Shown: positions 12,120 to 32,735, counted from the stretch's first letter. The stretch: DNA of 64,000 bases from Candidatus Saccharimonadia bacterium (GCA_038245115.1 JBBRSS010000003.1:3298-67297), one strand, 5' to 3'. A program made the numbers and translations. The notes: generated from the letters alone by a model not told the origin.

Positions 12120-12122
12120 CCG

Positions 12123-13826: not shown

Positions 13827-13869
13827 GCCGTAAAATTCCCGTATCACCAAATTACCCCACCCAAAAAAC

Positions 13870-14303: not shown

Positions 14304-14448
14304 AACGGCATAAAAAATACCACCCCTTGCGGAGTGGTCAGCTGGTCCGGGTAGCCCGTAGGGCTTTTCCATTCGGAATTTGTCCCCGGTAGCTCGTTAC
14401 AGGATGATACTATCATAAAACGCCAGTACCAGTAAATAACACTATCAA

Positions 14449-15657: not shown

Positions 15658-16224
15658 ATGAAAACCTTGAGCAACATATCGACGATCCAGTCTGGCTTCA
15701 CATTTCGCGAGGCAGTCTTCCATGACCCGGAAGGTGACGTGAACATCATTCAGGCAAAAGATATCCATGATGGGTCGATACATTTCGCCGAACTGCCAAA
15801 AGTCCAGGGTGTATCATTGCGCGCCACACGGCTTACTGGCAACATTGTGCTACTCTCAGCGCGCGGCAGCTTCCGGGCGGCGGCATGTAGCTTCGCTGAG
15901 CCAGCCGTGGCAGCATCATCCCTCTATGTTATTTGGCCTGACGATGCTCAGGCAGACCCTGAGTTTCTGTCACTCTATCTGAACAGCCCAGTGGCCCAGG
16001 CATACTTCGCTCAGAATTCAACAGGATCATCTATTAAGACACTTCTCATTGGTACGCTCCGTAACCTGCCCGTTCCCGATGTGCCACTCGATCGCCAAGC
16101 TAAGATCGTCAGATTGCGGAAGAATCAACAGCAACAGCATACTATCCTCGAGCGCCGCATCGCCATAAACCAAGCCATTCTCACAGAATTAATCACCACC
16201 GCATCACAAGGAGCCGCCGCATGA
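15658..16224 (+). CDS. hsdS: Type I R-M specificity subunit, half-size HsdS (single target-recognition domain)
   Basis: A TRD-like region plus a conserved HsdS C-terminal helix; stop overlaps the hsdM start (ATGA). Confidence 0.7.
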   Translation: MKTLSNISTIQSGFTFREAVFHDPEGDVNIIQAKDIHDGSIHFAELPKVQGVSLRATRLTGNIVLLSARGSFRAAACSFAEPAVAASSLYVIWPDDAQADPEFLSLYLNSPVAQAYFAQNSTGSSIKTLLIGTLRNLPVPDVPLDRQAKIVRLRKNQQQQHTILERRIAINQAILTELITTASQGAAA

Positions 16225-17735
16225 CCGCCAAATCCTACACCCAAGAAGAGCTCAACGGAATCCTGTGGAACGCCGCAGATTCATCCCGCACCTCTCTCGA
16301 TGGCGGGGTCTACAAAGATTACGTGCTTACCATGCTATTCTTCAAGTACCTCAGTGACTTATCGAAAAAGCAGATAGAGGTCTATCGTCAGCGATTCGCA
16401 GGTGACGTCGAGCGTATCACCAGCAAAATAAAGGCCGAGCGTTTTTACCTGCCCGTCGAAGCTACCTTCGACTACGTCTACGCCAAGAAGGAAGAAGATA
16501 ATATCGGCGAGGAGATCAACAAGGCCCTCCACCGCATTGAAGATATCAACAGGTCCAAGCTCGAAGGCGTCTTCAGTGTCGACTTCAACTCAGAATCCAC
16601 CCTCGGTAAGCTCGAGCAACGCAACAAGATGCTGCGACACCTGCTCGACGACTTCAACGGCATCGACCTGGCACATATAAATGAAGACGTCATCGGTAAC
16701 TCCTATATGTACCTCATCGAGAAGTTCGGTGCCGACGCCGGCAAGAAAGCCGGAGAATTTTTTACGGTCAAATCCGTCGCCAGCCTCGTCGCCAGGCTCG
16801 CCCAACCCAAGCCGGGCGACCGCATTTGCGACCCCGCCGTCGGCAGTGGCGGCCTGCTACTTCTGGCTGGCGCCGAAGTCGAAAAGCAGGGCTCGAACAA
16901 TTACGCGCTATATGGCCAAGAGTCCACCGGCAGCACCTACCAGCTCGCGCGTATGAACATGTTTTTGCACGGTAAAGACTCCGCCCACCTCGAATGGGGT
17001 GATACCTTGAACAACCCATTGTTCGTCGAGAACGACCGCCTCATGAAGTTCGACGTTTGTGTAGCCAATCCGCCCTTCTCACTCAAGAAATGGGGGGCCG
17101 AAAACGCCGAGAGTGATCGCTACAAGCGTTTCTGGCGCGGCATCCCGCCCAAAGACAAGGGCGACTACGCCTTCGTCACTCACATGGTAGAAACTGCCAA
17201 ACCAAAAACTGGCCGCATCGCCGTCATCGTCCCCCACGGCGTTCTTTTCCGCGGTGGTGTCGAAGGCAAAATCCGCGAAGCCTTCCTGCGCGAGAATATC
17301 ATTGATGCCGTCATTGGCCTGCCCGCCGGGCTCTTCCAGACTACCGGCATCCCCGTCGCCATCCTCGTGATCGACCGTTCCCGCGAAGTTGGCGGCGCCA
17401 ACCATAGCAAAAAAGACGTACTCTTTATTGAAGCCTCCAAGCAATTCAAGCCCGGCAAGGCCCGCAACAGCCTTAAGCCCGAGCATATCGATACCATTTT
17501 CAATACCTTCATCGCGCGCCAAGATGTCGACAAATTTGCCCACGTCGCCACCTTCGCCGAAATCCAGGAAAACGAATTCAACCTTAACATCACCCGCTAT
17601 GTTGATACCTTCGTCGAAGAGGCGGAAATCGACATCCAGGCTAACCTCAAAGAGCTCGAAGCCCTCAAGCCTGAGTTGGCTCGACTTGAAGCCCAGATGG
17701 ACGACTACCTAAAGCAGCTGGGGATTAAACCATGA
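16221..17735 (+). CDS. hsdM: Type I R-M DNA methyltransferase subunit HsdM
   Basis: N6-adenine MTase motifs: VANPPFSLKKW (motif IV) and DPAVGSGGLL (motif I); HsdM N-domain. Confidence 0.9.
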   Translation: MTAKSYTQEELNGILWNAADSSRTSLDGGVYKDYVLTMLFFKYLSDLSKKQIEVYRQRFAGDVERITSKIKAERFYLPVEATFDYVYAKKEEDNIGEEINKALHRIEDINRSKLEGVFSVDFNSESTLGKLEQRNKMLRHLLDDFNGIDLAHINEDVIGNSYMYLIEKFGADAGKKAGEFFTVKSVASLVARLAQPKPGDRICDPAVGSGGLLLLAGAEVEKQGSNNYALYGQESTGSTYQLARMNMFLHGKDSAHLEWGDTLNNPLFVENDRLMKFDVCVANPPFSLKKWGAENAESDRYKRFWRGIPPKDKGDYAFVTHMVETAKPKTGRIAVIVPHGVLFRGGVEGKIREAFLRENIIDAVIGLPAGLFQTTGIPVAILVIDRSREVGGANHSKKDVLFIEASKQFKPGKARNSLKPEHIDTIFNTFIARQDVDKFAHVATFAEIQENEFNLNITRYVDTFVEEAEIDIQANLKELEALKPELARLEAQMDDYLKQLGIKP

Positions 17736-17953
17736 GCGTCCAACCTCACGAAGGCGGCTTCCTTTTTGAGTCGACTAAACTACCAGAAACCAGCAATGTG
17801 CAAAAATTGCACGTTGCAGATTTCACCAAACGATTTGCTTACTACTGTCTGGACGCGGTTACTCGGGTTTTCCACAACCATTTCGAGGATGTCCTCGAAA
17901 TGGTATTTGTCCGCTCCAGTGCTAAAAACACCGTTGTAAGTGGCACGAAATGA
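17732..17953 (+). CDS. Small hypothetical protein translationally coupled between hsdM and the KilA-N gene
   Basis: ATGA overlaps at both ends (17732 and 17950). Confidence 0.3.
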   Translation: MSVQPHEGGFLFESTKLPETSNVQKLHVADFTKRFAYYCLDAVTRVFHNHFEDVLEMVFVRSSAKNTVVSGTK

Positions 17954-18798
17954 AAAAGATCACTGCCAAAGACGTGAGCATTTACGTTACTCAAGCACAT
18001 AATGCCGACTTCATCTCTCTCACGGATATGGCAAGATACCGGGATGAAGAACGAAGTGATTATATAATCCAAAACTGGATGCGCAATCGCAGTACCATTG
18101 AGTTCATTGGCATCTGGGAGACCATTCACAACCCTAGTTTTAAATCCATCGAATTCGATGGATTTAAAAACGAAGCCGGTTCCAATAGCTTCTCACTCAC
18201 GCCTAAGAAGTGGATCGAGACTACGAACGCAACCGGCCTGATCACCCGAAAGGGCAAGTACGGCGGCGGTACTTTTGCCCACGCCGACATTGCTCTAGAG
18301 TTTGCCGGTTGGCTTTCGCCAGAATTCAAACTATACGTAATCAAAGAATTTCAGCGCCTCAAAGATGACGAAAGTACTCGTCAGGCCCTGGGCTGGGATA
18401 CCAAGCGTACGCTGGCCAAAATCAATTACCGCATCCATACAGACGCCATCAAGCAGCATATTATTCCCGCAAAACTATCTGCCACCCAAGCAGGTATAGT
18501 TTATGCAAATGAAGCCGACGTGCTCAACAAGGCCCTATTCGGCATGACGGCCAAAGAATGGCGTACCGCTAATCCCAAACAAACTGGCAACATTCGCGAC
18601 TACGCCGAAGCCTCACAGCTTGTCTGTCTATCCAACCTTGAAAGCCTCAACGCCGAATTCATCCGCGCCGGCTACTCGCAACCAGACAGGCTCATCAAAC
18701 TCAACGAAAGCGCGATCATCCAAATGAAATCGTTGGCCCAAAACCGGGCGATCCAAGCGCTGAGTAATCTGACCGCAAAACAGGAAAGGGACAAGTAA
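17950..18798 (+). CDS. KilA-N domain DNA-binding protein embedded in the R-M operon
   Basis: FISLTDMARY...GTFAHADIALEFAGWLSPEFKLYV is the KilA-N/APSES-type signature. Confidence 0.7.
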   Translation: MKKITAKDVSIYVTQAHNADFISLTDMARYRDEERSDYIIQNWMRNRSTIEFIGIWETIHNPSFKSIEFDGFKNEAGSNSFSLTPKKWIETTNATGLITRKGKYGGGTFAHADIALEFAGWLSPEFKLYVIKEFQRLKDDESTRQALGWDTKRTLAKINYRIHTDAIKQHIIPAKLSATQAGIVYANEADVLNKALFGMTAKEWRTANPKQTGNIRDYAEASQLVCLSNLESLNAEFIRAGYSQPDRLIKLNESAIIQMKSLAQNRAIQALSNLTAKQERDK

Positions 18799-20043
18799 AT
18801 GAGTAGCCGTAAATACGTGCGGTTAAGCAGCATAGCAGATGTCCAAACCGGACCGTTCGGAAGCCTTTTTCATGAGGGTGACTATGTAGAATATGGTATG
18901 CCGATGATTACTGTCGAGAATATTAGAGACAGCAGAATTGCTCTTACGCCTGGAACGCCTATGGTTAGTATTCCAGACGCAGAAAGGTTGAAAAAGTTCG
19001 CGCTCAGAGAAGGCGATGTCGTATTTAGCCGGGTCGGTTGTGTCGACAGATCTGCACATGCAACGTTAGCGCAGCAGGGGTGGCTGTTTTCGGGTCGTTT
19101 GCTAAGGGTCAGAGCGAGACCCGGAACCGACGCCAAATTTCTCCACTATTATTTTTCTTACGAGGCCACTAAAATCCTCATTCGAAATATGGCCGTCGGC
19201 GGTACCATGGCATCCCTCAATACGGGCATCCTGAAATCATTGCCAATCCCAGATATTAAACTTGCAGAGCAAAACGGCATCGTGGGGATCCTTGAGATTT
19301 GGGATGAGGCGATCGATACTCTGACGGCAGTGATCTATGCGTATACGAGAGCGAAGAATGGCTTAGCGCAAGAATTGCTTTCGGGAGCACGGCGATTGGC
19401 CGGCTTTACAAGCAGTTGGCTGCCGGTGCGACTCGGCGAAACCACGAGTTTACTAAAAGACGGAACCCACGGCTCACATATAGACGTAAAGGACGGAATA
19501 CCCCTTCTGAGCGCGAAAGACATTGGGGACGGGCAGATCGATTTTCAAAACGAACCCCGACTAATTTCTGTTGGCGACTTCAACCACATTCACAATAAGT
19601 ACAAAATACAAGACGAAGATATCTTACTAAGTCTTGTTGGAAGTATTGGGAAGGTCGCAATTGTCGCCAACTACCATGATAATTTCACACTTCAGAGAAG
19701 CGTTGGAATTATACGATTTATCAAGCAAAACAGTCGCTTTATGTTTTATCTCTTCCGGGCTGCTAAATTTCAGAATGAACTCTCAAAAATCCAAAATAAG
19801 GGTGCTCAAGGAGGGGTCTACCTCGGGAATCTCTCTAAATTGGTACTAAACTTGCCTACGTTGCCTGAGCAGGCCGCAATCGCCAATATTCTCACTGCCT
19901 CCGATGATGAAATTGCGACGCTTATGCGAAAACTTGCACTCTTCAAGGAACAGCGCGAATATCTCCTCAACAACTTAATGAGCGGAAAAATCCGCACGCC
20001 CGAAAGCCTCAAAATACCCACCCAGGAGCCTACCCATGCATGA
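18799..20043 (+). CDS. hsdS: Type I R-M specificity subunit HsdS (two TRDs)
   Basis: Two TRDs separated by a conserved central repeat; 414 aa; start abuts the KilA-N stop; 8-nt overlap with hsdR. Confidence 0.85.
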   Translation: MSSRKYVRLSSIADVQTGPFGSLFHEGDYVEYGMPMITVENIRDSRIALTPGTPMVSIPDAERLKKFALREGDVVFSRVGCVDRSAHATLAQQGWLFSGRLLRVRARPGTDAKFLHYYFSYEATKILIRNMAVGGTMASLNTGILKSLPIPDIKLAEQNGIVGILEIWDEAIDTLTAVIYAYTRAKNGLAQELLSGARRLAGFTSSWLPVRLGETTSLLKDGTHGSHIDVKDGIPLLSAKDIGDGQIDFQNEPRLISVGDFNHIHNKYKIQDEDILLSLVGSIGKVAIVANYHDNFTLQRSVGIIRFIKQNSRFMFYLFRAAKFQNELSKIQNKGAQGGVYLGNLSKLVLNLPTLPEQAAIANILTASDDEIATLMRKLALFKEQREYLLNNLMSGKIRTPESLKIPTQEPTHA

Positions 20044-23000
20044 CATCGATTTTGACGAGGCCAAACAATCACAGCTTCCGTTTGTAGAGCTGCTGATCAA
20101 CCTCGGCTATACGTACATACCCGCAAAAGAGGTGCTGCGCCAGCGCGGCGACGATACTTCGAATTTCATCCTCAAGGATGTGGCGGCGCGCGCCCTCATG
20201 AACATCAACCAGTATGAGTATGATGACTCGCTGCACAATTTCAGTGACAAAGATGTGCACGACGCCATCGACGAGCTGGAGAACCTTCAGTTTGAAGGCC
20301 TCATCGACACGTCCAGAACCGTCTTCAATACCATTATGCCAACGCGCGGCGGCCGAACTATCAAGGTGCTACTCGACGGGAAATATGAATCCAAGAGCTT
20401 CAGGTTCATTGATTTTGACGAGCCCACCAATAATGAATTCAACGTTACGGTCGAATATCCCGCCAGCGGGAAGGGCAACATTCGCCCGGATATTGTGTGT
20501 TTCGTAAACGGGATACCCTTCGTTGTCATTGAGAACAAGAAATCCAGCGTGGATGTGGACGAGGCAATGAACCAGCTGGTGCGCAATCAGGGCGTGGATC
20601 GGTGCCCGAGGCTGTTTATCTATCCGCAGTTGCTCATTGCTACCAATGGCAAAGACATGCGCTACGGCACCACCGGCACGCCGGCTAAGTTTTATGCCAA
20701 CTGGCGCGAAAAAGATACAGCTGACACGGTTATTGAAGAGCGCGCAAAAGTGCTGATGGCTCAGCCGATCGAGCGGGGTATTTATCGGACCTTGCTATCT
20801 GATTTGAACGGCTCCGTTTTTGGGCATGCCCAAAAACTAAGTCGGGAAGTGACCGCTCAGGATCGTGCCGTGGTCGCGATGTTCGACAAAGCCCGTCTGC
20901 TTGATCTTACGAAAAACTACATTCTCTATGATGCTGGAACCAAGAAGGTCATGCGCTACCAACAGTATTTTGCCATTCACAAGATTCTAAAGCGCATTCA
21001 AAACGTGGAGCCGTCTGATGTCGGCGAACGCCGCAAAGGCGGGATCGTCTGGCACACCCAAGGCTCTGGTAAATCTCTGACGATGGTCATGTTTGTGCGG
21101 GCGTTGATCGAGGATGCGAGCATCGTGAACCCGCGAGTGATCATCGTGACCGACCGTAAGGACCTCGATCGGCAGATTAAGGGCACTTTTAACAATGCTG
21201 GGCTGAAGAAAAACGTCATTCAGGCTACTAGTGGCGAGCACCTGCTGGAGCTGATCAAGGATCGCGATAAGCGCATCATTACCACGCTCGTGCACAAGTT
21301 CCAAAGTGCCGGCCGTAATCGGGCCGACTTTGACGTGGACCACGACGCCAATATCTTTGTGCTCATCGATGAGGCCCACCGCTCGCAGGGCGGTGACGCC
21401 AATAGTGAAATGAACCTTATTATTCCCAACGCCTGTTACATCGCCTTTACGGGCACGCCTTTGCTCAAAAATGAGCGTTCGCGCGGCAAGTTTGGTGACT
21501 TTATCGACAAGTACACCATTGATGACGCCCTCGCGGATAAGATCATTTTGCCGCTGATTTATGAAGGTCGGTATGTGGACCTCAAGCAAGATAAGGATGA
21601 GATTGATCGCCTCATTGAGCGCCTTACCCAGGGCTTAAGTGATGAGCAAAAACGACAGCTCCAAAAGAATGTTCAGCAGGGGATTATTAAAGATAACCCA
21701 AAGCGGATCATAGAGATCGCCTACGACATTGAACGACACTATATAGACAAGCTCCAAGGCTCGGGCCTCAAAGCTCAGATTGTAGCGCCCTCAAAGTTCT
21801 CGGCCGTCATGATGCAGAAGTTCTTTGCCGATAGCGGCAAGGTCAACACTGCCCTAGTGATCTCCGACGAAAACGGCATCATTGCCGAAGGCGACGACCA
21901 CAAAAAAGAGGTGGATGATTATCTGAAGGATGTGAAGGAGAAATACCAGAGCCTCCTAACGTATGAAAAAGATGTTGTTTATAGCTTTGTAAATTACGAT
22001 GACAGCGTCGAGATTTTGATTGTGGTCGATAAACTTTTGACCGGCTTCGATGCGCCTCGCAACACGATCCTTTATCTGGCGCGCGAACTGACTGATCACA
22101 ACTTACTGCAGGCTATAGCTCGAGTGAACCGGCTCTATGAAAACCCTAGCTTGCCAAAGACTGCCGGGTTTATCATCGATTATTCCGAGAATGCTCAAAA
22201 TATTCACACCGCCATGCAGTTGTTCGGCAATTACGACGAAGATGACGTAAAGGGCGCGCTTGTAGACGTTAAGGACAAGATCAACGAGCTAGAAGCCGCC
22301 TACGCCGCACTCCATGATCTATTTAACGGCGTCGCTCATGATGACGAGGCCTATCTACAATTCTTGGCCGACGAGCCAACTCGCAAACAATTCGTGTTTG
22401 CGCTTAACGACTTCGTGCGGCTATTTGGCGAATCGATGACGCTTCAGGACTTCTCACTCAAATTCCCGCAGTTGCACTTGTACCGAGAGGAATGTAAGAA
22501 ATTCCTAGAGCTCCGAAAATCTGCCAATTTGCGGTACGCTGACCTCACGGATCTGCGGCCGTATAAGCTCGCGCTCATCAAAATCATGGATGACAACATC
22601 AAGGCGGACGAAGCCGAGCTGCTGACCGAGCAGATCGATATTACCAATAAAGAATTGTTTGAAAAGGCTATCGAAGAATTGGGCTCTGATAAGTCAAAAG
22701 CCGAGGCGATTGCGGCGCAAACCCAGAAAACAATCACCGAGCGACAGTCGTCCGATCCTGAGTTCTACGCACGTTTTTCAAAGCGCATTACCGAGATTAT
22801 CGATGCCATGCGCGAGAAGAAGCTGGCGGATATTGAAGCGCTTAAGCAGCTAAGACTCATTAGCGACGACGTGTTGGACAAAAAAGACGATGAGCTCCCA
22901 GAGGCCGTTGCAAAGAGCCCAGGGGCGGACATTTTATATCGTAACCTGGCTGGGAGCGTGGCGGGTATTGATGGAAATGAGTATGAACGGGCAGTGCTCG

Positions 23001-23212
23001 GGATGAATGAGGTTCTGCGGCAGGCAGCTACGGTCGACTGGTGGCGCAGCCACGAAACCAAACGGCAGATGCGCAGCAAGCTCGATGACTACCTGTACGA
23101 CGTCGTTAAAACAGAGCTGGGTGCCCAGCTTACCTATGAGCGGATTGAAAACATTATCGTGGAGGTCATGACGTTGGCTGAGCATAATCATGATGTATTT
23201 ACTCAGCAATGA
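20036..23212 (+). CDS. hsdR: Type I restriction enzyme R subunit HsdR
   Basis: N-terminal nuclease region, SF2 helicase motifs (TGSGKS Walker A, VLIDEAHRSQ DEAH box), 1058 aa. Confidence 0.9.
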   Translation: MHDIDFDEAKQSQLPFVELLINLGYTYIPAKEVLRQRGDDTSNFILKDVAARALMNINQYEYDDSLHNFSDKDVHDAIDELENLQFEGLIDTSRTVFNTIMPTRGGRTIKVLLDGKYESKSFRFIDFDEPTNNEFNVTVEYPASGKGNIRPDIVCFVNGIPFVVIENKKSSVDVDEAMNQLVRNQGVDRCPRLFIYPQLLIATNGKDMRYGTTGTPAKFYANWREKDTADTVIEERAKVLMAQPIERGIYRTLLSDLNGSVFGHAQKLSREVTAQDRAVVAMFDKARLLDLTKNYILYDAGTKKVMRYQQYFAIHKILKRIQNVEPSDVGERRKGGIVWHTQGSGKSLTMVMFVRALIEDASIVNPRVIIVTDRKDLDRQIKGTFNNAGLKKNVIQATSGEHLLELIKDRDKRIITTLVHKFQSAGRNRADFDVDHDANIFVLIDEAHRSQGGDANSEMNLIIPNACYIAFTGTPLLKNERSRGKFGDFIDKYTIDDALADKIILPLIYEGRYVDLKQDKDEIDRLIERLTQGLSDEQKRQLQKNVQQGIIKDNPKRIIEIAYDIERHYIDKLQGSGLKAQIVAPSKFSAVMMQKFFADSGKVNTALVISDENGIIAEGDDHKKEVDDYLKDVKEKYQSLLTYEKDVVYSFVNYDDSVEILIVVDKLLTGFDAPRNTILYLARELTDHNLLQAIARVNRLYENPSLPKTAGFIIDYSENAQNIHTAMQLFGNYDEDDVKGALVDVKDKINELEAAYAALHDLFNGVAHDDEAYLQFLADEPTRKQFVFALNDFVRLFGESMTLQDFSLKFPQLHLYREECKKFLELRKSANLRYADLTDLRPYKLALIKIMDDNIKADEAELLTEQIDITNKELFEKAIEELGSDKSKAEAIAAQTQKTITERQSSDPEFYARFSKRITEIIDAMREKKLADIEALKQLRLISDDVLDKKDDELPEAVAKSPGADILYRNLAGSVAGIDGNEYERAVLGMNEVLRQAATVDWWRSHETKRQMRSKLDDYLYDVVKTELGAQLTYERIENIIVEVMTLAEHNHDVFTQQ

Positions 23213-24015: not shown

Positions 24016-25059
24016 TTAGCCCCCAGTAACCGTGAAACTCCCCCCGTCACTGCCAATCGCTGATGGTGTGGCGATGGCGTGGCCGCGCCTGTTGACGAGG
24101 ACAATTTTCTGAGCACCGCTGCCGATCAGGTTTTGGGTGACACCGTTTGAGGTCGCCAGGGAGTCGGTGAAGCTCACCGAGCCAAAAACGTCGAACGGCA
24201 CCAGGCCGCCGGAGGCGTAGCTGGGGTCTTCTTGGATCCACTCGGCGCTCGATTGGGTACTGGCGTAGGTGACGGTAATCGAAAAGCTCTCGTGCTGGGT
24301 GACGTCACTGATGCTGATAAGCCACTGCGAGCCGCTCAATAGGTGAATGTCGGCGCTCATCACGTCGCCCGCGGCAACATGCATGCTGGGGATTGGCGTT
24401 TCGGGCGCCGGCAGCATCTCGTAAAACGCAATTGTGCTCGCCTGGCCGTCTTTGGTCACGGTATCGTCGGTGCCGACTTGGATGAGATCCGAGCCGGTCA
24501 CCCCGCCGATGCCAATCCAGGCCGCGTCGCCCGATTCTGATACTCCGTTGCCGCCTACGTGCGGGACTGTCCACGATCCGCTGACGCCGGTGAAATTCCC
24601 GGCGGGGGACATGTAGCCCGACCAGTTCGTCGAATAATATGCCGTGGCGGCCGGAGGGGGCGTGCCTTGACCGAGTCCGGGGGTCGGGGTTCCGCTGGGC
24701 GAAGGAATTGTCGTCGGCGCGGGGGTGGCGGCTGGGGTCACCGGCACCAGATGGCTCACTACGCTGTTGGGCGCCGGCGTTACTGGCGGCAAGGGCTTCG
24801 GCGCAATTGCCACTCGGCGCACCGGAGCTTTTGCGGGGGTGGGCTTGGGTTTGCTCGTGGGCGCCGGCGTGTGGACGGCCGGGGTGGGCGTAGCTGGCGC
24901 GGCCAGCGTGATAGCCCCGACGTGCGCCTGCATCTGCTTATGCGCACTCAGATTAGCCGCCGCCTGAATGCCAACCCCAAAACCGCCGAGGACCACTAAG
25001 GTCGCGACGAGTCCCGAACGTAAGAATGTTTTTGGCTGCTGTTTGTGTTTTTTTCTCAT
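24016..25059 (-). CDS. Membrane-anchored peptidase G1 (eqolisin/Peptidase_A4)-like protein with Pro/Thr-rich linker
   Basis: N-terminal TM; YYSTNWSGY...GNFTGVSGSWTVPHV and AAWIGIGG resemble the eqolisin SNWAGAV and W.GIDG motifs. Confidence 0.5.
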   Translation of the reverse strand: MRKKHKQQPKTFLRSGLVATLVVLGGFGVGIQAAANLSAHKQMQAHVGAITLAAPATPTPAVHTPAPTSKPKPTPAKAPVRRVAIAPKPLPPVTPAPNSVVSHLVPVTPAATPAPTTIPSPSGTPTPGLGQGTPPPAATAYYSTNWSGYMSPAGNFTGVSGSWTVPHVGGNGVSESGDAAWIGIGGVTGSDLIQVGTDDTVTKDGQASTIAFYEMLPAPETPIPSMHVAAGDVMSADIHLLSGSQWLISISDVTQHESFSITVTYASTQSSAEWIQEDPSYASGGLVPFDVFGSVSFTDSLATSNGVTQNLIGSGAQKIVLVNRRGHAIATPSAIGSDGGSFTVTGG

Positions 25060-26767: not shown

Positions 26768-27360
26768 ATGAAAATACAGATCGTGATAGGAAGTACGCGC
26801 ACCGGCCGCATTGCCGAGCGAGTCGCTAAATGGGTGGCGAATTCCGCTACCGGGCAGCCGAATTTCGAGGTCGAATTGGTTGATTTGGCCAATTATGACA
26901 TGCCATATTTCGACGAAGCTATCAGTCCGCAGTTCAACCGCGATCGTCAGCCTAGCCAGCGGTTAAGCAGTTCTTGGATAAGGTTTCTGAGGCGGATGGT
27001 TACGTAATTGTGACCCCGGAATACAACTATTCGGTTCCCGCTGTGCTCAAGAATGCGCTCGATAACTTGGCCTTTGAAATGGCCAAAAAACCCGTCGCTA
27101 TAGTTTCTTACGGCAGCGTGGGTGGGGCCCGGGCCGCCGAGCATCTCAAGACCATCTTGTTTGCGGTGAAGGCCGTGACGGTCCCAATGGCGCTGGCCGT
27201 AATTGGACCCCAGTCCATCGTTGATGCCGATGGCAATTTTACCGGTGACACTTCGAGTCCATACGGCCCAGATAAGCGTTTAATGATTTTGCTGGGTGAA
27301 CTGGCTTGGTACGCGAACACTCTCAAAGCTGGCCGTGAAACTCCCGCCGGCGTTAAATAA
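26768..27360 (+). pseudogene. NAD(P)H-dependent FMN reductase (flavodoxin-like), frameshifted
   Basis: The N-terminal part (MKIQIVIGSTRTGRIAERV...) and C-terminal part (...PAVKQFLDKVSEADGYVIVTPEYNYSVPAVLKNALD) lie in different frames; the switch is near 26950-26960, where TAG interrupts the second frame. Confidence 0.6.
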
Positions 27361-27424
27361 CGCGACTACTGCCCTCACAGCCTCAATACTTGGCACGGGC
27401 GCAACCTCACCGTATACTGGTGGC

Positions 27425-27715
27425 ATGTCAAACATTGGTGTCACAGAGGTTGAGCGCGTCGCAAAGTTGGCGCGCATTGGTTTGAGCCCGGAAGAAGCTT
27501 CCCGCTTGTCGGTTGAGCTGGGCCAAATCGTGGGCTTTGTCGAACAACTTGCCGGCGTAGACGTGGAGGGGGTTGCCCCCACCGACCAGGTTACCGGTCT
27601 GGTCGACGTCTGGCGCGAAGACGTGGTAGTGCCTAGCCTGCCGCGCGAGGAATTGCTCGCCAACGCGCCCGCCCAGCAAGACGGCTACATTGTGGTTAAA
27701 CGGGTGCTGGGTTAA
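27425..27715 (+). CDS. gatC: Glutamyl/aspartyl-tRNA amidotransferase subunit C
   Basis: MSNIGVTEVERVAKLARIGLSPEEASRL is a GatC-like start; ~96 aa; precedes gatA with stop/start overlap. Confidence 0.8.
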   Translation: MSNIGVTEVERVAKLARIGLSPEEASRLSVELGQIVGFVEQLAGVDVEGVAPTDQVTGLVDVWREDVVVPSLPREELLANAPAQQDGYIVVKRVLG

Positions 27716-29148
27716 TGGATCTCAAGCGCCCCATTGCCGATCTGGTCGCCGAAGTTCGCGCCGGTAAACTCACCGCAACTGGTCTGGTGGCGGCCAGTTT
27801 GGCGCGCATTGCCGCCACCGACTCGTATCACGCCTTGCTCGAGCTTAATCCTCAGGCCGCTCACGACGCCGAGGTGGTGGACGCGCGAATAGCCGCCGGC
27901 GAGGATTTACCGCTGGCCGGCATCCCCTTTATTGCCAAGGACAACTTTCTAACAGCAGACACCCACACCACGGCCGCCAGTAACATTTTGAAGCCGTTTC
28001 GGGCGCCCTACGAGGGCCCGGCCATTAGTCGCCTCAAGGCCGCCGGCGCCGTGCTGGTCGCCAAGGCCAACCTGGACGCCTTTGCTCACGGTTCCTCCAC
28101 CGAAAACTCGGATTTTGGCCCCACCAAGAACCCCGTTGACCCCACTAAGGTCCCCGGAGGCAGTTCGGGTGGTTCGGCGGCGGCCGTGGCCCTCGGCCAG
28201 GCTTGCTTTGCCGTGGGTACCGACACCGGCGGCTCCATCCGTCTGCCTGCCAGCTATTGCGGCGTCGTAGGCCTCAAGCCCACCTATGGCCTCATCCCTC
28301 GCACCGGAGTAGTGGCCATGGGCAGCTCCACCGACGTTATCGGCCCGCTCACCAATAGCGTTGCCGATTCGGCCCTGGTGCTCGACGTGCTAGCTGGTCG
28401 TGATGCTTCCGACGCCACCAGTATTGAGCGCGACCCGAAGACTTACGTCACTAGCAGTGGCGACCTCGCCGGCACTCGCATCGGCCTCATCAAAGAGTAT
28501 CTCGGCGCCGGACTCGACTCGCAGATCAAAGATCAGATCCTTGCCATGGTGGACCGTCTCGAAGCCCGCGGCGCCAAAGTCGAAGAGGTAAGCCTGCCCG
28601 CCACCGAATTGGCCCTCGCCGCCTACTACATCCTCGTACCGGCCGAAGTCTCGAGCAACTTGGCTCGCTACGACGGCGTGCGCTACGGTCACAGCGCGGC
28701 GGGCGCTACCGATCTGGAACAAACCTATCGCCTCAGCCGCGAAGAAGGCTTCGGTGCCGAGGCCAAACGCCGCATCATTATCGGCACCTACGTGCTCTCG
28801 AGTGGCTACTACGACGCTTACTACAAGCGAGCACAAAAAGTCCGCACCAAGCTAGTCGAAGAATTCACGGCTGCCTTTGATAAGTATGATCTACTCCTCG
28901 GGCCTACCGCCCCCACCCCGGCCTTTGATCTTGGCGCCAACTCTCAGGACCCGCTGGCGATGTATCTCAACGACGTCATGACTGTCGCCGTCAACCTCGT
29001 CGGTGTGCCCGCCATCTCAATCCCACTCGGCACCGTTGATAAACTCCCGGTCGGTTTGCAGCTCATTGCCCCTCAACGCGCCGAACGAAATCTATTTGCC
29101 GCCGCCACCGCTGCTGAGGCCATCATTGGCGATTGGAGAGCGCGTTAA
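27715..29148 (+). CDS. gatA: Glutamyl/aspartyl-tRNA amidotransferase subunit A (amidase signature)
   Basis: Amidase signature region (GGSSGGSAAAVA, GTDTGGSIR); 477 aa. Confidence 0.95.
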   Translation: MDLKRPIADLVAEVRAGKLTATGLVAASLARIAATDSYHALLELNPQAAHDAEVVDARIAAGEDLPLAGIPFIAKDNFLTADTHTTAASNILKPFRAPYEGPAISRLKAAGAVLVAKANLDAFAHGSSTENSDFGPTKNPVDPTKVPGGSSGGSAAAVALGQACFAVGTDTGGSIRLPASYCGVVGLKPTYGLIPRTGVVAMGSSTDVIGPLTNSVADSALVLDVLAGRDASDATSIERDPKTYVTSSGDLAGTRIGLIKEYLGAGLDSQIKDQILAMVDRLEARGAKVEEVSLPATELALAAYYILVPAEVSSNLARYDGVRYGHSAAGATDLEQTYRLSREEGFGAEAKRRIIIGTYVLSSGYYDAYYKRAQKVRTKLVEEFTAAFDKYDLLLGPTAPTPAFDLGANSQDPLAMYLNDVMTVAVNLVGVPAISIPLGTVDKLPVGLQLIAPQRAERNLFAAATAAEAIIGDWRAR

Positions 29149-29600
29149 TGTTTGCCTACCTGATTATTATCTTGGTTGGCGCTCTCATTTTATACGCCGT
29201 CGTCGAGAGCGGCAGTCGTAAGGGCAAGGGTCGCCGCAACACCCGTCCCGTGGCTTCCTCGCGCGGCTACCGCGGTGCTATCGATCAGTCCGAAATCAAA
29301 GCGCGTTGGGCGACCATTATGGCTACCTCCGGCACCGGCGCCAGCGGCCTCAAAAGCTCCCTTAACGAGGCCGATAAGCTCCTGGACCACGTCATGAAGC
29401 AAGCCGGCTATTCCGGCGAAAAAATGGCCGAACGTCTCAAGTTGGCCGGTCCTCGTTTCACCGATAATAACGCCGTTTGGCGCGCCCATAAACTCCGCAA
29501 CGCCCTTGCCCACGAAATCGGCTTCGACCTCGTGCCCAGCCAGGTCAAACAGGCCCTGCACGACTTCGAACAAGCCCTCAAAGATTTGCAGGCACTATAG
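29148..29600 (+). CDS. Membrane-anchored protein with C-terminal Rx4H (HEPN-like) motif
   Basis: TAATG overlap with the gatA stop; N-terminal TM helix; AHKLRNALAHEIGF contains R-x4-H as in HEPN/HepT-type RNase motifs (inference). Confidence 0.4.
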   Translation: MFAYLIIILVGALILYAVVESGSRKGKGRRNTRPVASSRGYRGAIDQSEIKARWATIMATSGTGASGLKSSLNEADKLLDHVMKQAGYSGEKMAERLKLAGPRFTDNNAVWRAHKLRNALAHEIGFDLVPSQVKQALHDFEQALKDLQAL

Positions 29601-30074
29601 ATGAGTAAAGTTATTGAACCCGGCGAAAAACACTATACGGCTGGGGCCGTTGTGATTAGCGACTCGCTTCCCGCCAAAGCTCTACTGCTCCACCATCTCA
29701 AATTAGATTACTGGCTACCTCCGGGCGGGCATCAGGAGTCTCATGAAAACCCCGCGGAGACCGCTGTCCGCGAGACACTGGAAGAAACCGGTATTGATAT
29801 CAGTACGTACATTGCGCCGACCAAGCCATTCGATGGACGCGTCAAGACTCTGCCTCCAGCCGATTATTTCCTTGAGGAGTCTATTCCCGCCTACGGCGAT
29901 CAATCAGCTCATTACCACCTCGACCAGATTTACGTCGTGAAGGTCCCCGAACAAGTGGTTCAGCTTGAAGCCGCTAAAGCCCACGACATCGGTTGGTTTA
30001 CCCTCGAAGAAACCGAAAAGCTCAACACTTTCGACAATGTCCACATGATTTTACGCAAGGAATTAGCAGCATGA
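29601..30074 (+). CDS. NUDIX hydrolase
   Basis: Nudix box GGHQESHENPAETAVRETLEETGI (G-x5-E-x7-REUxEExGU). Confidence 0.8.
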   Translation: MSKVIEPGEKHYTAGAVVISDSLPAKALLLHHLKLDYWLPPGGHQESHENPAETAVRETLEETGIDISTYIAPTKPFDGRVKTLPPADYFLEESIPAYGDQSAHYHLDQIYVVKVPEQVVQLEAAKAHDIGWFTLEETEKLNTFDNVHMILRKELAA

Positions 30075-30631
30075 ATCCCAAGATCAAATTGGCTCATCCA
30101 TACACGTACGGCAAGGGCTACATCATGCTCGATGTCCAGCTCACGGGCTTGCCCAGTACTCTGGAGTTAACGGGAACTACATACCAGGTAACGCCGGAGC
30201 TTCATTGCAGTCTGATAGCGACCAAAAAAATTGTCCCCCAGTTGGCAGAACTTGAAGGTATTTCCGCAACCGAGGCCGAGACCAAGGTCACTCAGCTCGC
30301 TTCCCAGATTATCAACGATATCAACCCATCCCTTCGCATTATCGGTCCAGAATTGCGTATCGCCGATCAGCCCGAACGAGACCGACGGACTATTGTGGTA
30401 ATGACAGAAGTAACCGGCCTAGCAGAGGTATTCCGTCGTCTGAATGAACAACTACCCTTAAACGTGCCTACCCAAACCACTCACATTGCCCTTTATGCGC
30501 TTAACGGGCTGCCCATCGGTATTACCAGTGCAAGTGAGCTCGCGGAATGGACTCGGCCATTAACCCACGAAGAGTCTGCTCAGTTTAACCGGCAGATCGA
30601 CGTAGGAAATATATTTGGAGTTCAGCTATGA
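30071..30631 (+). CDS. Hypothetical protein (possible 2H-phosphoesterase-like H-x-S/T-x motifs)
   Basis: ATGA overlaps on both sides; LHCSL near residue 45 and HIAL near residue 148 loosely recall the two 2H motifs (weak). Confidence 0.35.
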   Translation: MNPKIKLAHPYTYGKGYIMLDVQLTGLPSTLELTGTTYQVTPELHCSLIATKKIVPQLAELEGISATEAETKVTQLASQIINDINPSLRIIGPELRIADQPERDRRTIVVMTEVTGLAEVFRRLNEQLPLNVPTQTTHIALYALNGLPIGITSASELAEWTRPLTHEESAQFNRQIDVGNIFGVQL

Positions 30632-31284
30632 ATCCCGATCTTCGCGAAAAACTAGATAAATATCTCGATGAGGACTCCGACTTTCGCCAGGTCTATGACT
30701 ACACGAAGCAGCGCTTTGATGCCGCCCCGCATCTCACGGGACACAATTTCGAACATGCGCGACGCGATACTATCAACTCAATAGCAATCGGCGAACCCGA
30801 AGGTGCCGATATGACAATCGTTTTGTGCTCTGCCGTGATGCACGATATTGGTTTTCTGTATGGCGCTCATCGCAGCGTTCATGGCGAGATTGGTGCAGAA
30901 AAACTATCCGAGTTTCTAAATGATGGTGGGATCGATCTGGAGTCCGCGAAGTTGGAGCGGATTGCCGAATGTATTCGCACACACAAGGGTGTTACTCACG
31001 GCATATCTCCGGTTAGTCTGGAGGCAAAGGTTGTCGCCGACGCCGACCTGCTCGATAAATTCGGCCCCGTTGGGCTCTATCAGACCATCTTATCATTTGG
31101 GGAATTGGGCTTTGTACCTCAGGATGTTATCAGACGTATGTTTGGCCGTACTCACCTGCAGTTTGAGACATCGACCGGGACTAGCCTGGGATCAGGCTTA
31201 CAATCATATAATCAGGAGTTCGCCGAGTCGCTCGAGCGAGCCTATGCGCCATATGGCTTTGATGTACCGAAGGAGAAAGTATGA
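30628..31284 (+). CDS. HD-domain phosphohydrolase
   Basis: H...HD...H...D pattern (HNFEHARRD, VMHDIGF, DADLLDKFG); overlaps neighbours by 4 nt. Confidence 0.75.
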   Translation: MNPDLREKLDKYLDEDSDFRQVYDYTKQRFDAAPHLTGHNFEHARRDTINSIAIGEPEGADMTIVLCSAVMHDIGFLYGAHRSVHGEIGAEKLSEFLNDGGIDLESAKLERIAECIRTHKGVTHGISPVSLEAKVVADADLLDKFGPVGLYQTILSFGELGFVPQDVIRRMFGRTHLQFETSTGTSLGSGLQSYNQEFAESLERAYAPYGFDVPKEKV

Positions 31285-32735
31285 ACCCCGAACTCCGAGC
31301 CAAATACGAAGTTGTCATTGGTATCGAATGCCACGTACAGCTGGCCACAAAGTCCAAGCTGTTCTGTGCCTGCGATAATGATTCGCGCGATGCTGAGCCC
31401 AACACGCACGTTTGCCCCATCTGTTTCGGCATGCCGGGTACGCTGCCGGTGCTCAACAAGCGCGCCGTGGAGCTAGCCCTGCGCATGGGTCTGGCGCTGA
31501 ACGCCGAATACCCCGACAATCTCCACACCAAATTCGACCGCAAAAACTACTTCTACCCCGACTCGCCTAAGGGCTATCAAATTACTCAGTTCGACGAGCC
31601 CATTGTGCCTGGCGGGCACGTGGAATTCCCGTTAGATGGCGAGCTTAAGCGTGTTGGAATAACCCGTGCGCACCTCGAGGGCGACGCCGGCAAGCTGACT
31701 CATCCCGACAACAAAGACTACTCTCTTGTCGACCTCAACCGCGCCGAAACACCCTTGCTCGAAATAGTCTCCGAGCCCGATATGCGCAGCTCCGCCGAAG
31801 CCAAGGCTTACGCCAAAGAACTATTTAACTTGGCGCGCTACGCCGACGTCAGTGATGCCAACCTGTACTACGGTAATATGCGTTTCGACGTTAACGTAAG
31901 CGTCATGGAAAAAGGCTCCACAACGTTTGGTACCCGCTCCGAAACCAAGAATCTCAACAGTTTTCAGTCCATCGAAAAATCTATCGAGTATGAAACCCGT
32001 CGTCAGATCGTGGCCGTCGAAAACGGCGAACGCATCCGCCAAGAAACCCGTGGCTGGAACGAGGCAAAAGGGGAGACCTACTCCATGCGCTCCAAAGAGG
32101 ACGCCGATGAATACCGCTACTTCCCCGAACCCGACCTGCCGCCACTCGTAATCACCCGCGCCATGGTCGAAGAACAACGCAACGAACTTGGGCTACTCCC
32201 CGCCGACTTGCGCTCCGAGCTTACTGCCGCTGGTCTGCCGGTCGCGGAGGCCCAGGTCCTCGTGGCCGATCCCGACGCCGCCATCTTCTGGCACCACGTC
32301 GTGAACCTCGACCCCCAACAGGCCCGCTTTGCCTTCACCTGGCTCATCGGCGACCGCGTGAAGCTGGCCGACACCACCGCTACCACTATTACCGCCAGTG
32401 CCCTCGACCCGGCCGCCCTCGTTGGCACCGGCCAGATGCTCGCCGGCGGCAAGCTCAGCTCATCCAACGCCAAAGCCCTCCTGGCCGACCTCTGGCTGGC
32501 CGCCGCCGACCCGCTGGTACGCGCCACGGAGCTGGGGCTACTTCAGCAATCCGACGCCGCCGAGCTGGGCAAGATAGTCGACGAAGTTATCGCAGCCAAC
32601 CCCCAGGCCGTAGCAGACTATAAGGCCGGCAACGCCCGCGCCTTCGGTGCCCTCGTAGGCCAATCCATGAAAGCCACCCAGGGCAAGGGCAACCCTCCCG
32701 TAATCAACCAGCTTCTCAAGGACCGCCTTGACTAG
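31281..32735 (+). CDS. gatB: Glutamyl/aspartyl-tRNA amidotransferase subunit B
   Basis: VIGIECHVQL start, GatB/YqeY C-terminal domain, 484 aa. Confidence 0.95.
   Translation: MNPELRAKYEVVIGIECHVQLATKSKLFCACDNDSRDAEPNTHVCPICFGMPGTLPVLNKRAVELALRMGLALNAEYPDNLHTKFDRKNYFYPDSPKGYQITQFDEPIVPGGHVEFPLDGELKRVGITRAHLEGDAGKLTHPDNKDYSLVDLNRAETPLLEIVSEPDMRSSAEAKAYAKELFNLARYADVSDANLYYGNMRFDVNVSVMEKGSTTFGTRSETKNLNSFQSIEKSIEYETRRQIVAVENGERIRQETRGWNEAKGETYSMRSKEDADEYRYFPEPDLPPLVITRAMVEEQRNELGLLPADLRSELTAAGLPVAEAQVLVADPDAAIFWHHVVNLDPQQARFAFTWLIGDRVKLADTTATTITASALDPAALVGTGQMLAGGKLSSSNAKALLADLWLAAADPLVRATELGLLQQSDAAELGKIVDEVIAANPQAVADYKAGNARAFGALVGQSMKATQGKGNPPVINQLLKDRLD

What the first reader, a model, noticed from the sequence alone, without database searches (positions are those of the whole stretch)
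27425..32735. gatCA and gatB split by a four-gene insert: membrane HEPN-like protein, NUDIX, unknown (2H-like?) and HD hydrolase
gatC-gatA-gatB are normally contiguous. Here gatA's stop overlaps (TAATG) the start of a membrane-anchored protein with an Rx4H motif (LRNALAHE, HEPN/HepT-like). A NUDIX hydrolase follows (abutting), then an unknown protein with two loose H-x-S/T-x motifs (ATGA overlap), an HD phosphohydrolase (ATGA overlap) and gatB (ATGA overlap). The tight coupling implies obligate co-expression with the tRNA-dependent amidotransferase. The domains share a theme: an RNA-cleaving HEPN-like motif, possible 2',3'-cyclic phosphate handling (2H/HD) and nucleotide pyrophosphatase (NUDIX). 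This may be an undescribed tRNA/RNA-end surveillance or nucleotide-signal module attached to Glu/Asp-tRNA transamidation.
Basis: partly seen in the sequence, partly recalled or inferred. Interest (0 to 1): 0.65.

Follow-up and report, generated by a model that had tools for sequence, protein, structure and literature searches.

The report
Membrane HEPN gene inside gatCAB operon
In this Saccharibacteria (TM7) genome, and in hundreds of its relatives, an uncharacterised membrane-anchored protein with an RNase-type HEPN domain always sits between the gatA and gatB genes of the tRNA amidotransferase, whereas the NUDIX, 2H-like and HD genes beside it are variable passengers.

Summary
Seven genes run head to tail from 27425 to 32735: gatC, gatA, a 150-aa membrane protein (P3), NUDIX, a 186-aa unknown (P5), HD and gatB. 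All junctions overlap or abut.

The "four-gene module" does not hold. Among 80 species-level genomes, gatA is directly upstream of P3 wherever DNA is available. In 50 of them gatB follows P3 with nothing between. The P3|gatB junction is an insertion slot with variable cargo. The closest relatives lack exactly P5+HD, and the three cargo genes have lower GC3.

P3 diverges about as slowly as GatA and GatB. Its positional counterpart in Southlakia epibionticum is depleted in published Tn-seq data, although polarity on gatB is not excluded.

P3 matches no Pfam family and I found no paper that discusses it. What it does for GatCAB, whether tRNA cleavage or binding or membrane tethering, is inferred rather than shown.

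The parts
27390..27418 (+). Promoter-like site (TTGGCA-17-TATACT) ending 6 nt before the gatC ATG. It is the only such site the simple scan found upstream of or within the seven-gene block.
   Evidence: a consensus match only, not evidence of function
27425..27715 (+). gatC (96 aa)
   Evidence: PF02686 and TIGR00135 at 84 bits, above the cut-off of 47
27715..29148 (+). gatA (477 aa), the glutaminase subunit
   Evidence: TIGR00132 at 538 bits, above the cut-off of 481
29148..29600 (+). P3: the conserved fourth gene of the operon. It encodes a 150-aa membrane-anchored HEPN-fold protein, and its start overlaps the gatA stop (TAATG).
   Evidence: gatA lies directly upstream of P3 in every fetched locus where that DNA was present. 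The family has at least 6830 clusters at 90% identity, all 146-170 aa among those listed.
29151..29216 (+). P3 residues 2-23: a single transmembrane helix, followed by a disordered basic linker (residues 26-41)
   Evidence: AF2 model helix 2-23 and pLDDT below 50 for residues 26-41. K+R average 6.1 in the 25 residues after the helix and 0.26 before it, across 80 sequences, so the C-terminal domain is predicted to be cytoplasmic.
29286..29585 (+). P3 residues 47-146: five-helix HEPN-fold domain
29496..29513 (+). P3 R117-N-A-L-A-H122: the Rx4H motif of HEPN RNases, within the invariant block A113-H114-K-L-R117-N118-x-x-A-H122
   Evidence: A113, H114, R117, N118 and H122 are invariant in 80 of 80 distinct sequences.
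29601..30074 (+). NUDIX hydrolase (157 aa), variable cargo. The Nudix box G43-x5-E-x7-REUxEExGU is intact (nt 29727-29795).
   Evidence: PF00293. Present in only some loci. GC3 is 0.54.
30071..30631 (+). P5 (186 aa): divergent 2H-like phosphoesterase, variable cargo. Motifs are H45-C-S-L and H138-I-A-L.
30628..31284 (+). HD phosphohydrolase (218 aa; H43, H72-D73), variable cargo. It lies directly upstream of gatB in every locus found that has it. Its first 8 codons (MNPDLREK) resemble those of gatB (MNPELRAK).
   Evidence: PF01966 and a weak match to PRK10119. Position and N-terminal similarity.
31281..32735 (+). gatB (484 aa)
   Evidence: NF004012 at 570 bits, above the cut-off of 338; GatB_N plus GatB_Yqey domains

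Best explanation
**Origin (shown).** The window comes from a member of Candidatus Saccharimonadia (Saccharibacteria/TM7, Patescibacteria).

**Core operon (shown).** In this class the tRNA-dependent amidotransferase operon has four genes, not three: gatC-gatA-P3-gatB. P3 is a roughly 150-aa protein with one N-terminal membrane helix, a basic disordered linker and a HEPN-fold domain predicted to face the cytoplasm. Its R-N-x3-H motif is invariant. P3 has the same GC3 level as the gat genes and diverges at about the same rate.

**Function of P3 (inferred).**
- P3 is made together with GatCAB by translational coupling.
- It probably works as a dimeric, metal-independent HEPN ribonuclease, or as an RNA-end binding module held at the inner face of the membrane.
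- Its most likely substrate is tRNA, the RNA that GatCAB handles. Possible roles are turnover or quality control of Glu-tRNA(Gln) and Asp-tRNA(Asn), or holding the transamidation complex at the membrane.

**Cargo slot (shown).** The junction between P3 and gatB is a permissive insertion slot. Small genes have repeatedly been placed there with overlapping start and stop codons.

**Cargo in this window (inferred).** The cargo here is NUDIX + 2H-like + HD. These three probably cooperate with each other in nucleotide or RNA-end phosphoester processing, for example 2',3'-cyclic or ADP-ribose-type substrates. They are accessory to GatCAB, not part of it.
For: **Conservation of P3 with gatCAB**
- 441 species-representative genomes encode a P3 relative.
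- In the 80 species-level loci fetched, gatA is directly upstream of P3 wherever upstream DNA is present, usually with a 4-nt overlap. gatB follows P3 directly in 50 loci. Nothing is ever inserted between gatA and P3.
- A profile search found at least 6830 clusters. All those listed are 146-170 aa, and the named ones are Saccharibacteria or Patescibacteria.
- Over 66 loci, the P3 domain has a median identity to the window of 54%. The values for GatC, GatA and GatB are 59%, 63% and 55%.

**Fold and motif**
- AF2 model with pLDDT 84.
- R117, N118 and H122 are invariant.
- Weak CARF_HEPN sequence hit.
- Charge distribution predicts that the domain is cytoplasmic.

**Independent published data (Wang et al. 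2023, PMC10633639, Tables S1 and S2)**
- Southlakia epibionticum has gatC/gatA/SEML1_0535 (420 bp)/gatB in the same layout.
- SEML1_0535 is flagged as a 'core family' and 'Patescibacteria enriched'.
- It is annotated automatically as DUF4145-like, and as ECOD 'Nucleotidyltransferase substrate binding subunit/domain' (the HEPN fold class).
- Its Tn-seq calls are GD, GD, ES, similar to its gat neighbours.

**Cargo status of NUDIX, P5 and HD**
- Variable slot contents.
- A clean P5+HD indel against the nearest relatives.
- Gene order shuffled in L086.
- A GC3 drop in the three genes.

**Cooperation among the three cargo enzymes**
- 2H-HD fusion (P0128).
- NUDIX-2H fusions in both orders (P0139, P0215, P0214).
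Against: - No experiment or co-folding result shows that P3 touches GatCAB or cleaves RNA.
- The Tn-seq depletion of SEML1_0535 could be a polar effect on gatB. Its homology to P3 is inferred from position, size and fold annotation, not from an alignment.
- A conserved Rx4H motif does not prove catalysis through it. For the Legionella HEPN toxin, the authors argue that the motif is not the catalytic site (PMC11586414).
- P3 matches no Pfam HEPN family, including DUF4145.
- Cargo in the slot is enriched in phosphoesterases (2H, HD, His_Phos_1, HAD, NUDIX). That pattern would also fit a looser functional link to a HEPN cleavage product, so 'pure passengers' is not proven.
Confidence: 0.6

Rival explanations
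1. All four inserted genes form one RNA-end surveillance pathway tied to transamidation. The HEPN protein cuts tRNA or RNA and leaves a 2',3'-cyclic phosphate. The 2H enzyme opens it, HD removes the phosphate, and NUDIX handles a nucleotide by-product.
For: - The HEPN and 2H-like folds are confirmed.
- From established knowledge, HEPN RNases leave 2',3'-cyclic phosphate ends.
- The slot's cargo across genomes is dominated by phosphoesterases that could heal such ends: 2H, HD, His_Phos_1 and HAD, alongside NUDIX.
- 2H-HD and NUDIX-2H fusions exist.
Against: - 50 of 80 loci have no cargo at all.
- The nearest relatives lack P5+HD.
- Other cargo is unrelated to RNA ends: PNPOx-like, RibD_C, Ldh_2, cupin, MBL, GIY-YIG.
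- Cargo GC3 differs from that of the operon.
- An ASCH-2H homologue sits in a nucleotide-metabolism neighbourhood (NUDIX, GMP synthase, deaminase) with no gat genes.
Confidence: 0.15
2. P3 is a general housekeeping membrane-tethered endoribonuclease, playing an RNase Y-like role in mRNA or rRNA turnover. Its place in the gat operon is historical and secures constitutive expression, without any specific link to GatCAB.
For: - Intact HEPN motif and cytoplasmic membrane tether.
- Class-wide presence.
- Other unrelated genes also ride in this operon.
Against: - The gatA-P3 junction is never broken in about 78 loci, whose GatA and GatB have diverged to roughly 50% identity, while the neighbouring P3-gatB junction is broken often.
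- From established comparative genomics, such persistent adjacency usually marks proteins that interact or act in one process.
Confidence: 0.2
3. P3 is not a nuclease. It is a structural membrane anchor or oligomeric pore of the Csx28 type: one N-terminal membrane helix plus a cytoplasmic HEPN-like bundle. It would localise GatCAB or sense its state.
For: - The architecture and size resemble Csx28: 177 aa, an N-terminal membrane helix, a cytoplasmic four-helix bundle and an octameric pore (bioRxiv 10.1101/2021.11.02.466367).
Against: - Absolute invariance of R117, N118 and H122 is typical of active HEPN sites.
- No sequence similarity to Csx28 was found.
Confidence: 0.12
4. P3 is a toxin or anti-phage HEPN effector (HepT-like, abortive infection) that happens to be lodged in the gat operon.
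For: The best structural matches include HepT-type toxins (5yep, 8xdj, 7ae2).
Against: - There is no MNT antitoxin gene next to it.
- There is no Tyr at the AMPylation position of the RX4HXY motif; P3 has H-E-[VI].
- Inheritance is vertical and class-wide at a fixed locus, at the same evolutionary rate as GatA and GatB. Defence genes are patchy and fast-evolving.
- There is no significant PADLOC match.
Confidence: 0.03

Closest known systems
HepT / DUF86-type minimal HEPN toxins of type VII HEPN-MNT toxin-antitoxin systems (PDB 5yep, 7ae2, 8xdj)
   Same: - An Rx4H motif about 30 residues from the C-terminus.
- These proteins act as dimeric RNases, and some are reported to digest tRNA (PMC11586414).
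   Different: - P3 has an N-terminal membrane helix.
- It has no partner MNT gene.
- It has no Tyr acceptor (RX4HXY), showing RNxxAHE[VI] instead.
- It is not mobile or patchy: it is fixed between gatA and gatB across a whole class.
- It has no sequence-level match to Pfam HEPN families.
Csx28, accessory protein of type VI-B2 CRISPR-Cas13b
   Same: - Same overall build: a protein of about 150-180 aa with a single N-terminal transmembrane helix and a C-terminal cytoplasmic four-helix bundle.
- That bundle is regarded as a divergent HEPN domain (my own recollection of the literature; the passages read describe only the bundle).
   Different: - Csx28 is a defence accessory that forms an octameric pore and depends on Cas13b.
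- P3 is a housekeeping-operon gene with a canonical, invariant RNxxxH motif.
- No detectable sequence similarity.
- Oligomeric state of P3 is unknown.
DUF4145 (PF13643), a HEPN-clan family
   Same: An automated language-model annotation in Wang et al. 2023, Table S2, calls the Southlakia positional orthologue a 'DUF4145 domain-containing protein'. The motif style (RN..AH late in the domain) is similar, from my own recollection of that family.
   Different: None of the 30 P3 sequences matched PF13643, even at E up to 10. By the Pfam test, P3 is not a member.
Canonical gatCAB operon (for example in Bacillus subtilis) and split gat loci in other bacteria
   Same: The same three subunits are present with equivalog-level scores, in the order C-A-B.
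   Different: - An extra conserved gene lies between gatA and gatB.
- From my own knowledge, split gat loci in other phyla carry unrelated genes, and I know of none with a HEPN protein.
- I found no paper that mentions both HEPN and GatB.
2H phosphoesterases (Usb1, LigT/ThpR, CPDase, viral ns2/VP3 and Acb1 phosphodiesterases), for P5
   Same: - Two His-x-Ser/Thr-type motifs on two beta strands about 90 residues apart.
- One fused homologue gives a weak hit to Pfam 2H-SAK.
   Different: - The second motif in this window is H-I-A-L, with Ala in place of Thr.
- The substrate is unknown.

Membership tests
HEPN superfamily (P3) | All-alpha up-and-down helical bundle of the HEPN fold | tested here: met
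   [not shown]
HEPN superfamily (P3) | Conserved Rx4-6H motif, with a polar residue after the Arg | tested here: met
   R117-N118-x3-H122 is invariant in 80 of 80 distinct sequences.
HEPN superfamily (P3) | Sequence-profile match to a curated HEPN-clan family (HEPN, DUF86, DUF4145 and others) | tested here: not met
   No Pfam or NCBIfam hit for the window protein. Among 30 homologues there was only one weak HEPN_Swt1 hit (E 0.11) and two Hypoth_Ymh hits (E 0.15). PADLOC CARF_HEPN gave E 0.004. The PDB sequence search found nothing.
HEPN superfamily (P3) | Metal-independent endoribonuclease activity from a dimeric composite site | not testable with these tools
   This needs biochemistry or a multimer prediction.
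HepT-MntA (type VII) toxin-antitoxin (P3) | Adjacent MNT nucleotidyltransferase antitoxin gene | tested here: not met
   The neighbours are gatA and either NUDIX or gatB, in the window and in related loci.
HepT-MntA (type VII) toxin-antitoxin (P3) | RX4HXY motif with the Tyr that is AMPylated | tested here: not met
   The residues after H122 are E (75%) and then V/I/A/L, with no Tyr. The motif definition comes from PMC11586414.
2H phosphoesterase superfamily (P5) | Two H-x-[ST]-x motifs | tested here: inconclusive
   H45-C-S-L has an invariant H and S. H138 is invariant, but the window has H-I-A-L where the six close homologues have H-x-T-x.
2H phosphoesterase superfamily (P5) | Two-lobed alpha+beta 2H fold with the His motifs on central strands | tested here: met
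   [not shown]
2H phosphoesterase superfamily (P5) | Match to a curated 2H family profile | tested here: not met
   No Pfam or NCBIfam hit for the window protein. There is only a sub-threshold 2H-SAK hit (E 0.0086, 16.8 bits against a cut-off of 27) in the fused homologue P0215.
NUDIX hydrolases (29601-30074) | PF00293 above the gathering score, and a Nudix box GX5EX7REUXEEXGU | tested here: met
   46.3 bits against a cut-off of 21.1. The box at residues 43-65 was read from the translation. No equivalog-level subfamily was reached.
HD phosphohydrolases (30628-31284) | PF01966 above the gathering score, and H...HD...D metal ligands | tested here: met
   32.3 bits against a cut-off of 22. H43 and H72-D73 are present. 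The match to PRK10119 is only weak: 46.6 bits against a cut-off of 286.
GatCAB amidotransferase | All three subunits at equivalog level | tested here: met
   TIGR00135 84 against 47, TIGR00132 538 against 481, and NF004012 570 against 338 bits.

The most novel reading that the evidence does not exclude
P3 is a genuine fourth subunit of the Saccharibacteria transamidation machinery. It would be a housekeeping, membrane-anchored HEPN ribonuclease that docks GatCAB at the inner face of the membrane. There it would cleave or hold the acceptor end of mischarged Glu-tRNA(Gln) or Asp-tRNA(Asn). This would be a tRNA quality-control role for a protein fold otherwise known in bacteria almost only from toxins and phage defence.
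Probability: 0.15. Interest if true: 0.85.

Novelty: new variant of a known kind. Interest (0 to 1): 0.6.

Why it matters
- From established knowledge of the family, HEPN domains in bacteria are known almost only from conflict systems: toxin-antitoxin pairs, abortive infection, and CRISPR effectors and accessories.
- Here a HEPN protein with an intact nuclease-type motif is fixed inside an essential translation operon of a whole bacterial class. It is conserved about as well as the enzyme subunits and matches no curated family.
- In one cultivated species its positional counterpart is depleted in a transposon screen.
- If it acts with GatCAB, it would reveal a new component of indirect Gln/Asn-tRNA formation and a housekeeping role for HEPN RNases.
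- The hypothesis can be tested directly, because Southlakia epibionticum is genetically tractable.
- The finding also shows a recurrent insertion slot in an essential operon, with a possible mechanism: reuse of gatB's first codons. This bears on how very small genomes add accessory genes.

Tried and rejected
- **Sequence searches of solved structures.** The P3 and P5 profiles found nothing useful in the PDB. P3 had no hit, and P5 gave only a chance-level match to urease gamma.
- **Family scans.** Pfam and NCBIfam scans of P3 and P5 were negative. PADLOC gave only a weak CARF_HEPN match.
- **Fold searches.** The AFDB Foldseek library was unavailable. Foldseek against the PDB was not significant for P5.
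- **Literature.** These term combinations returned no papers: 'Swiss army knife' + '2H phosphoesterase' + 'RNA repair'; HEPN + Saccharibacteria; HEPN + GatB + amidotransferase.
- **Cluster look-up.** Looking up P5 relatives gave almost no names.
- **Toxin-antitoxin or defence reading of P3: rejected.** There is no MNT partner and no Tyr in the motif, and inheritance is strictly vertical.
- **'Four-gene module obligately tied to GatCAB': rejected.** The slot is empty in 50 of 80 loci, and the P5+HD block is absent from the nearest relatives.
- **Ongoing gene conversion between the HD and gatB starts: not supported.** Own-locus similarity (3.6 of 7 residues) is only slightly above cross-locus similarity (2.8 of 7). 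A single old duplication is more likely.
- **Not achieved.**
  - I could not align SEML1_0535 directly to P3.
  - I could not test whether P3-like genes lie between gatA and gatB in other Patescibacteria classes.

Full report
**1. The observation**

Seven forward-strand ORFs fill 27425-32735 with no spacer.
- gatC 27425-27715
- gatA 27715-29148
- P3 29148-29600 (TAATG overlap with gatA)
- NUDIX 29601-30074 (TAG then ATG)
- P5 30071-30631 (ATGA overlap)
- HD 30628-31284 (ATGA overlap)
- gatB 31281-32735 (ATGA overlap)

GatC, GatA and GatB reach NCBIfam equivalog scores. NUDIX and HD pass the Pfam thresholds. P3 and P5 match no Pfam or NCBIfam family. A simple scan found one promoter-like site, just upstream of gatC (27390-27418), and none inside the block. 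The description at the stated coordinates is therefore correct.

**2. Organism and reach of P3**

- A single-sequence search with P3 gave 488 relatives. The named ones are from Candidatus Saccharimonadia.
- A scan of one genome per species found 441 genomes that encode a relative.
- A profile built from divergent members found at least 6830 clusters at 90% identity. All those listed are 146-170 aa, none has a Pfam domain, and all are named 'hypothetical'.
- P5 is much rarer near the window. The word-indexed search found 7 relatives, and an exhaustive profile search found 336 cluster representatives.

**3. Gene order in relatives: the key result**

I called ORFs in 85 fetched loci and labelled them with profiles built from the window's seven proteins.
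- Wherever upstream DNA was present, gatA lies directly upstream of P3, usually with a 4-nt overlap. Nothing is ever inserted between them.
- In 50 of the 80 species-level loci, gatB follows P3 directly.
- About 28 other loci carry one to three extra genes between P3 and gatB.
- In two loci no gatB lies within the fetched downstream DNA.

The cargo differs from locus to locus:
- NUDIX, in about 10 loci
- His_Phos_1, in 6 loci
- HD, in 5 loci, always directly upstream of gatB
- HAD, 4 genes
- PNPOx-like, 4 genes
- the P5 family, in 3 loci
- nucleoside deoxyribosyltransferase-like, in 2 loci
- singletons: GIY-YIG, RibD_C, an mTERF-like protein, and one Ldh_2/cupin/metallo-beta-lactamase set
- several unknowns

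Independent gene calls on other contigs gave further layouts:
- gatC-gatA-P3-P5-gatB
- gatC-gatA-P3-HD-gatB
- gatC-gatA-P3-NUDIX-HD-gatB
- gatC-gatA-P3-P5-NUDIX-HD-gatB, with the order shuffled
- one copy of the window's own order

The two nearest relatives, at 83-87% and 75-83% nucleotide identity, align through gatC-gatA-P3-NUDIX. They resume exactly at the gatB start, so they lack window 30080-31280, which is P5+HD.

In the window, GC3 is 0.68-0.73 for gatC, gatA, P3 and gatB. It is 0.52-0.54 for NUDIX, P5 and HD.

The unit is therefore a conserved four-gene core, gatC-gatA-P3-gatB, plus a variable cargo slot at the P3|gatB junction.

**4. What P3 is**

- The AF2 model (pLDDT 84) has a helix at residues 2-23, a disordered basic stretch at 26-41, and a five-helix domain at 47-146 with pLDDT mostly above 90.
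- Thirteen positions are invariant across 80 distinct sequences: W54, A75, D76, K77, L78, D80, G90, R96, A113, H114, R117, N118 and H122. The Rx4H motif (RNxxAH) is therefore fully conserved.
- K+R average 6.1 in the 25 residues after the membrane helix and 0.26 before it. This predicts a cytoplasmic HEPN domain.
- Over 66 loci, the domain's identity to the window (median 54%) matches that of GatC (59%), GatA (63%) and GatB (55%).
- At sequence level P3 is outside all curated HEPN families. Pfam gave only chance-level hits in 30 members. PADLOC gave a weak CARF_HEPN match at E 0.004 over residues 80-147.

**5. Published data**

Wang et al. 2023 (Cell; PMC10633639) list the following genes for Southlakia epibionticum: SEML1_0537 gatC, 0536 gatA, 0535 'hypothetical protein' (420 bp, overlapping gatA by 4 nt and abutting gatB) and 0534 gatB.
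- SEML1_0535 is marked as a core family and as Patescibacteria-enriched.
- Its Tn-seq calls are GD, GD, ES. Normalised reads fall from 127 to 6 to 3 across the three time points.
- Table S2 gives an automated name, 'DUF4145 domain-containing protein'. It also gives an ECOD assignment, 'Nucleotidyltransferase substrate binding subunit/domain', for residues 26-135.
- The main text does not mention the gene, GatB or HEPN.

I treat SEML1_0535 as the positional orthologue of P3 by inference, because I could not align it. The Tn-seq depletion may be a polar effect on gatB. Searches for papers combining HEPN with Saccharibacteria, or HEPN with GatB, found none.

**6. What P5, NUDIX and HD are**

- The P5 model (pLDDT 89) has H45-x-S and H138 at the start of two beta strands.
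- Foldseek ranks the same proteins first, but without significance. The 2H assignment is therefore likely rather than certain.
- In this window the second motif is H-I-A-L, where close homologues have Thr.
- Elsewhere the P5 domain is fused to HD (P0128) and to NUDIX in both orders (P0139, P0215, P0214). It is also fused to ASCH, a 6-phosphogluconolactonase-type domain and HAD.
- One ASCH-P5 gene lies beside NUDIX, GMP synthase and a deaminase, with no gat genes nearby.
- The Nudix box and the HD metal ligands are intact.

These facts suggest that NUDIX, 2H and HD work together on nucleotides or RNA ends. They do not show a dependence on GatCAB.

**7. How the cargo got there**

- The HD gene starts MNPDLREK and gatB starts MNPELRAK (18 of 24 nt identical). 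P5 starts MNPKIKLA.
- In most HD-bearing loci the HD N-terminus follows the GatB N-terminal pattern M-x-P-E-[LI]-R-x-K.
- Own-locus similarity (3.6 of 7 residues) is close to cross-locus similarity (2.8 of 7). I estimate both to be far above what unrelated sequences would give.
- This fits one old insertion just inside the 5' end of gatB that duplicated its first codons. The newcomer would then have inherited gatB's coupled translation start. This is an inference.

**8. Mechanism**

Shown:
- the four-gene core
- the HEPN fold
- the invariant motif
- the predicted cytoplasmic tether
- the evolutionary rate
- the variability of the cargo

Inferred:
- P3 is made with GatCAB.
- It acts as a dimeric HEPN RNase or RNA-end binding module at the membrane, most plausibly on tRNA.

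HEPN RNases are known to cleave tRNA anticodon loops and acceptor stems (abstract of bioRxiv 10.64898/2025.12.03.690598; PMC11586414). The unbroken gatA-P3 adjacency, at about 50% GatA/GatB identity, argues for a functional or physical link. That argument rests on established comparative-genomics reasoning.

The main rivals are:
- a general membrane RNase with only a historical link to the operon
- a non-catalytic anchor or pore of the Csx28 type
- a toxin or defence element, which the data make very unlikely

**9. Verdict**

The unit of interest is different from the one proposed. It is a class-wide, uncharacterised, membrane-anchored HEPN gene embedded in the gatCAB operon, with a cargo slot beside it. 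P3 is a new variant within the HEPN superfamily, in a context I found described nowhere. Interest is moderate to high, because the function is open and can be tested in a tractable organism.

Noticed in passing
window 30628-30651 against 31281-31304 (also 30071-30079); L005, L018, L022, L087: The HD gene begins with a near-copy of gatB's first eight codons: MNPDLREK against MNPELRAK, 18 of 24 nt identical. P5 also starts MNP. The same resemblance between the HD and GatB N-termini is seen in most HD-bearing loci. It suggests that the cargo gene was inserted just inside gatB's 5' end and duplicated its translation start.
   Followed up: partly
window 26768-27360 (+): The NADPH-dependent FMN reductase/flavodoxin-like gene upstream of gatC is split into two overlapping ORFs: 26768-27007, and 26974-27360, which matches FMN_red profile positions 66-146. 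Relatives have one intact gene of 196-197 aa (L001, L086, L087). This is a frameshift, either a pseudogene or an assembly error.
   Followed up: partly
window 14336-14400 (-): Rfam match above the gathering score to the DUF3800-II RNA motif (61.2 bits against 43.2).
   Followed up: no
window 27390-27425: The promoter-like -10 box ends only 6 nt before the gatC ATG, so the operon mRNA may be leaderless or nearly so.
   Followed up: no
window 16221-23212 (+): An HsdM-type N6 DNA methylase (16221-17735) is followed by three long ORFs, the last of 1058 aa. This looks like a type I restriction-modification locus, although only HsdM was checked.
   Followed up: no
window 24016-25059 (-): A predicted secreted protein has a long Pro/Thr/Ala-rich linker and a C-terminal peptidase A4 (scytalidoglutamic peptidase family) domain. 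In my experience this family is unusual in bacteria.
   Followed up: no
window 8001-14000: This stretch has raised G+C (up to 0.65) and strongly negative GC skew (-0.37 at 9001-10000). It covers NAD-dependent DNA ligase (8483-10501) and a DsbD/thioredoxin-like membrane protein (12123-13826). The cause of the skew was not examined.
   Followed up: no
L072 and L085 (related loci): In two genomes, gatC-gatA-P3 is not followed by gatB within 3.5-6 kb. L085 continues with Lgt, two DsbA-like genes and a transporter. L072 continues with MscS and YtxH, which lie downstream of gatB in the window. gatB may have moved or been lost from the locus while P3 stayed with gatA.
   Followed up: partly
L088 5001-5912 (related locus): An ASCH-P5 fusion protein sits beside NUDIX, GMP synthase and a cytidine/tRNA-type deaminase in a genome region with no gat genes. 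This points to a nucleotide-metabolism role for the P5 family.
   Followed up: no
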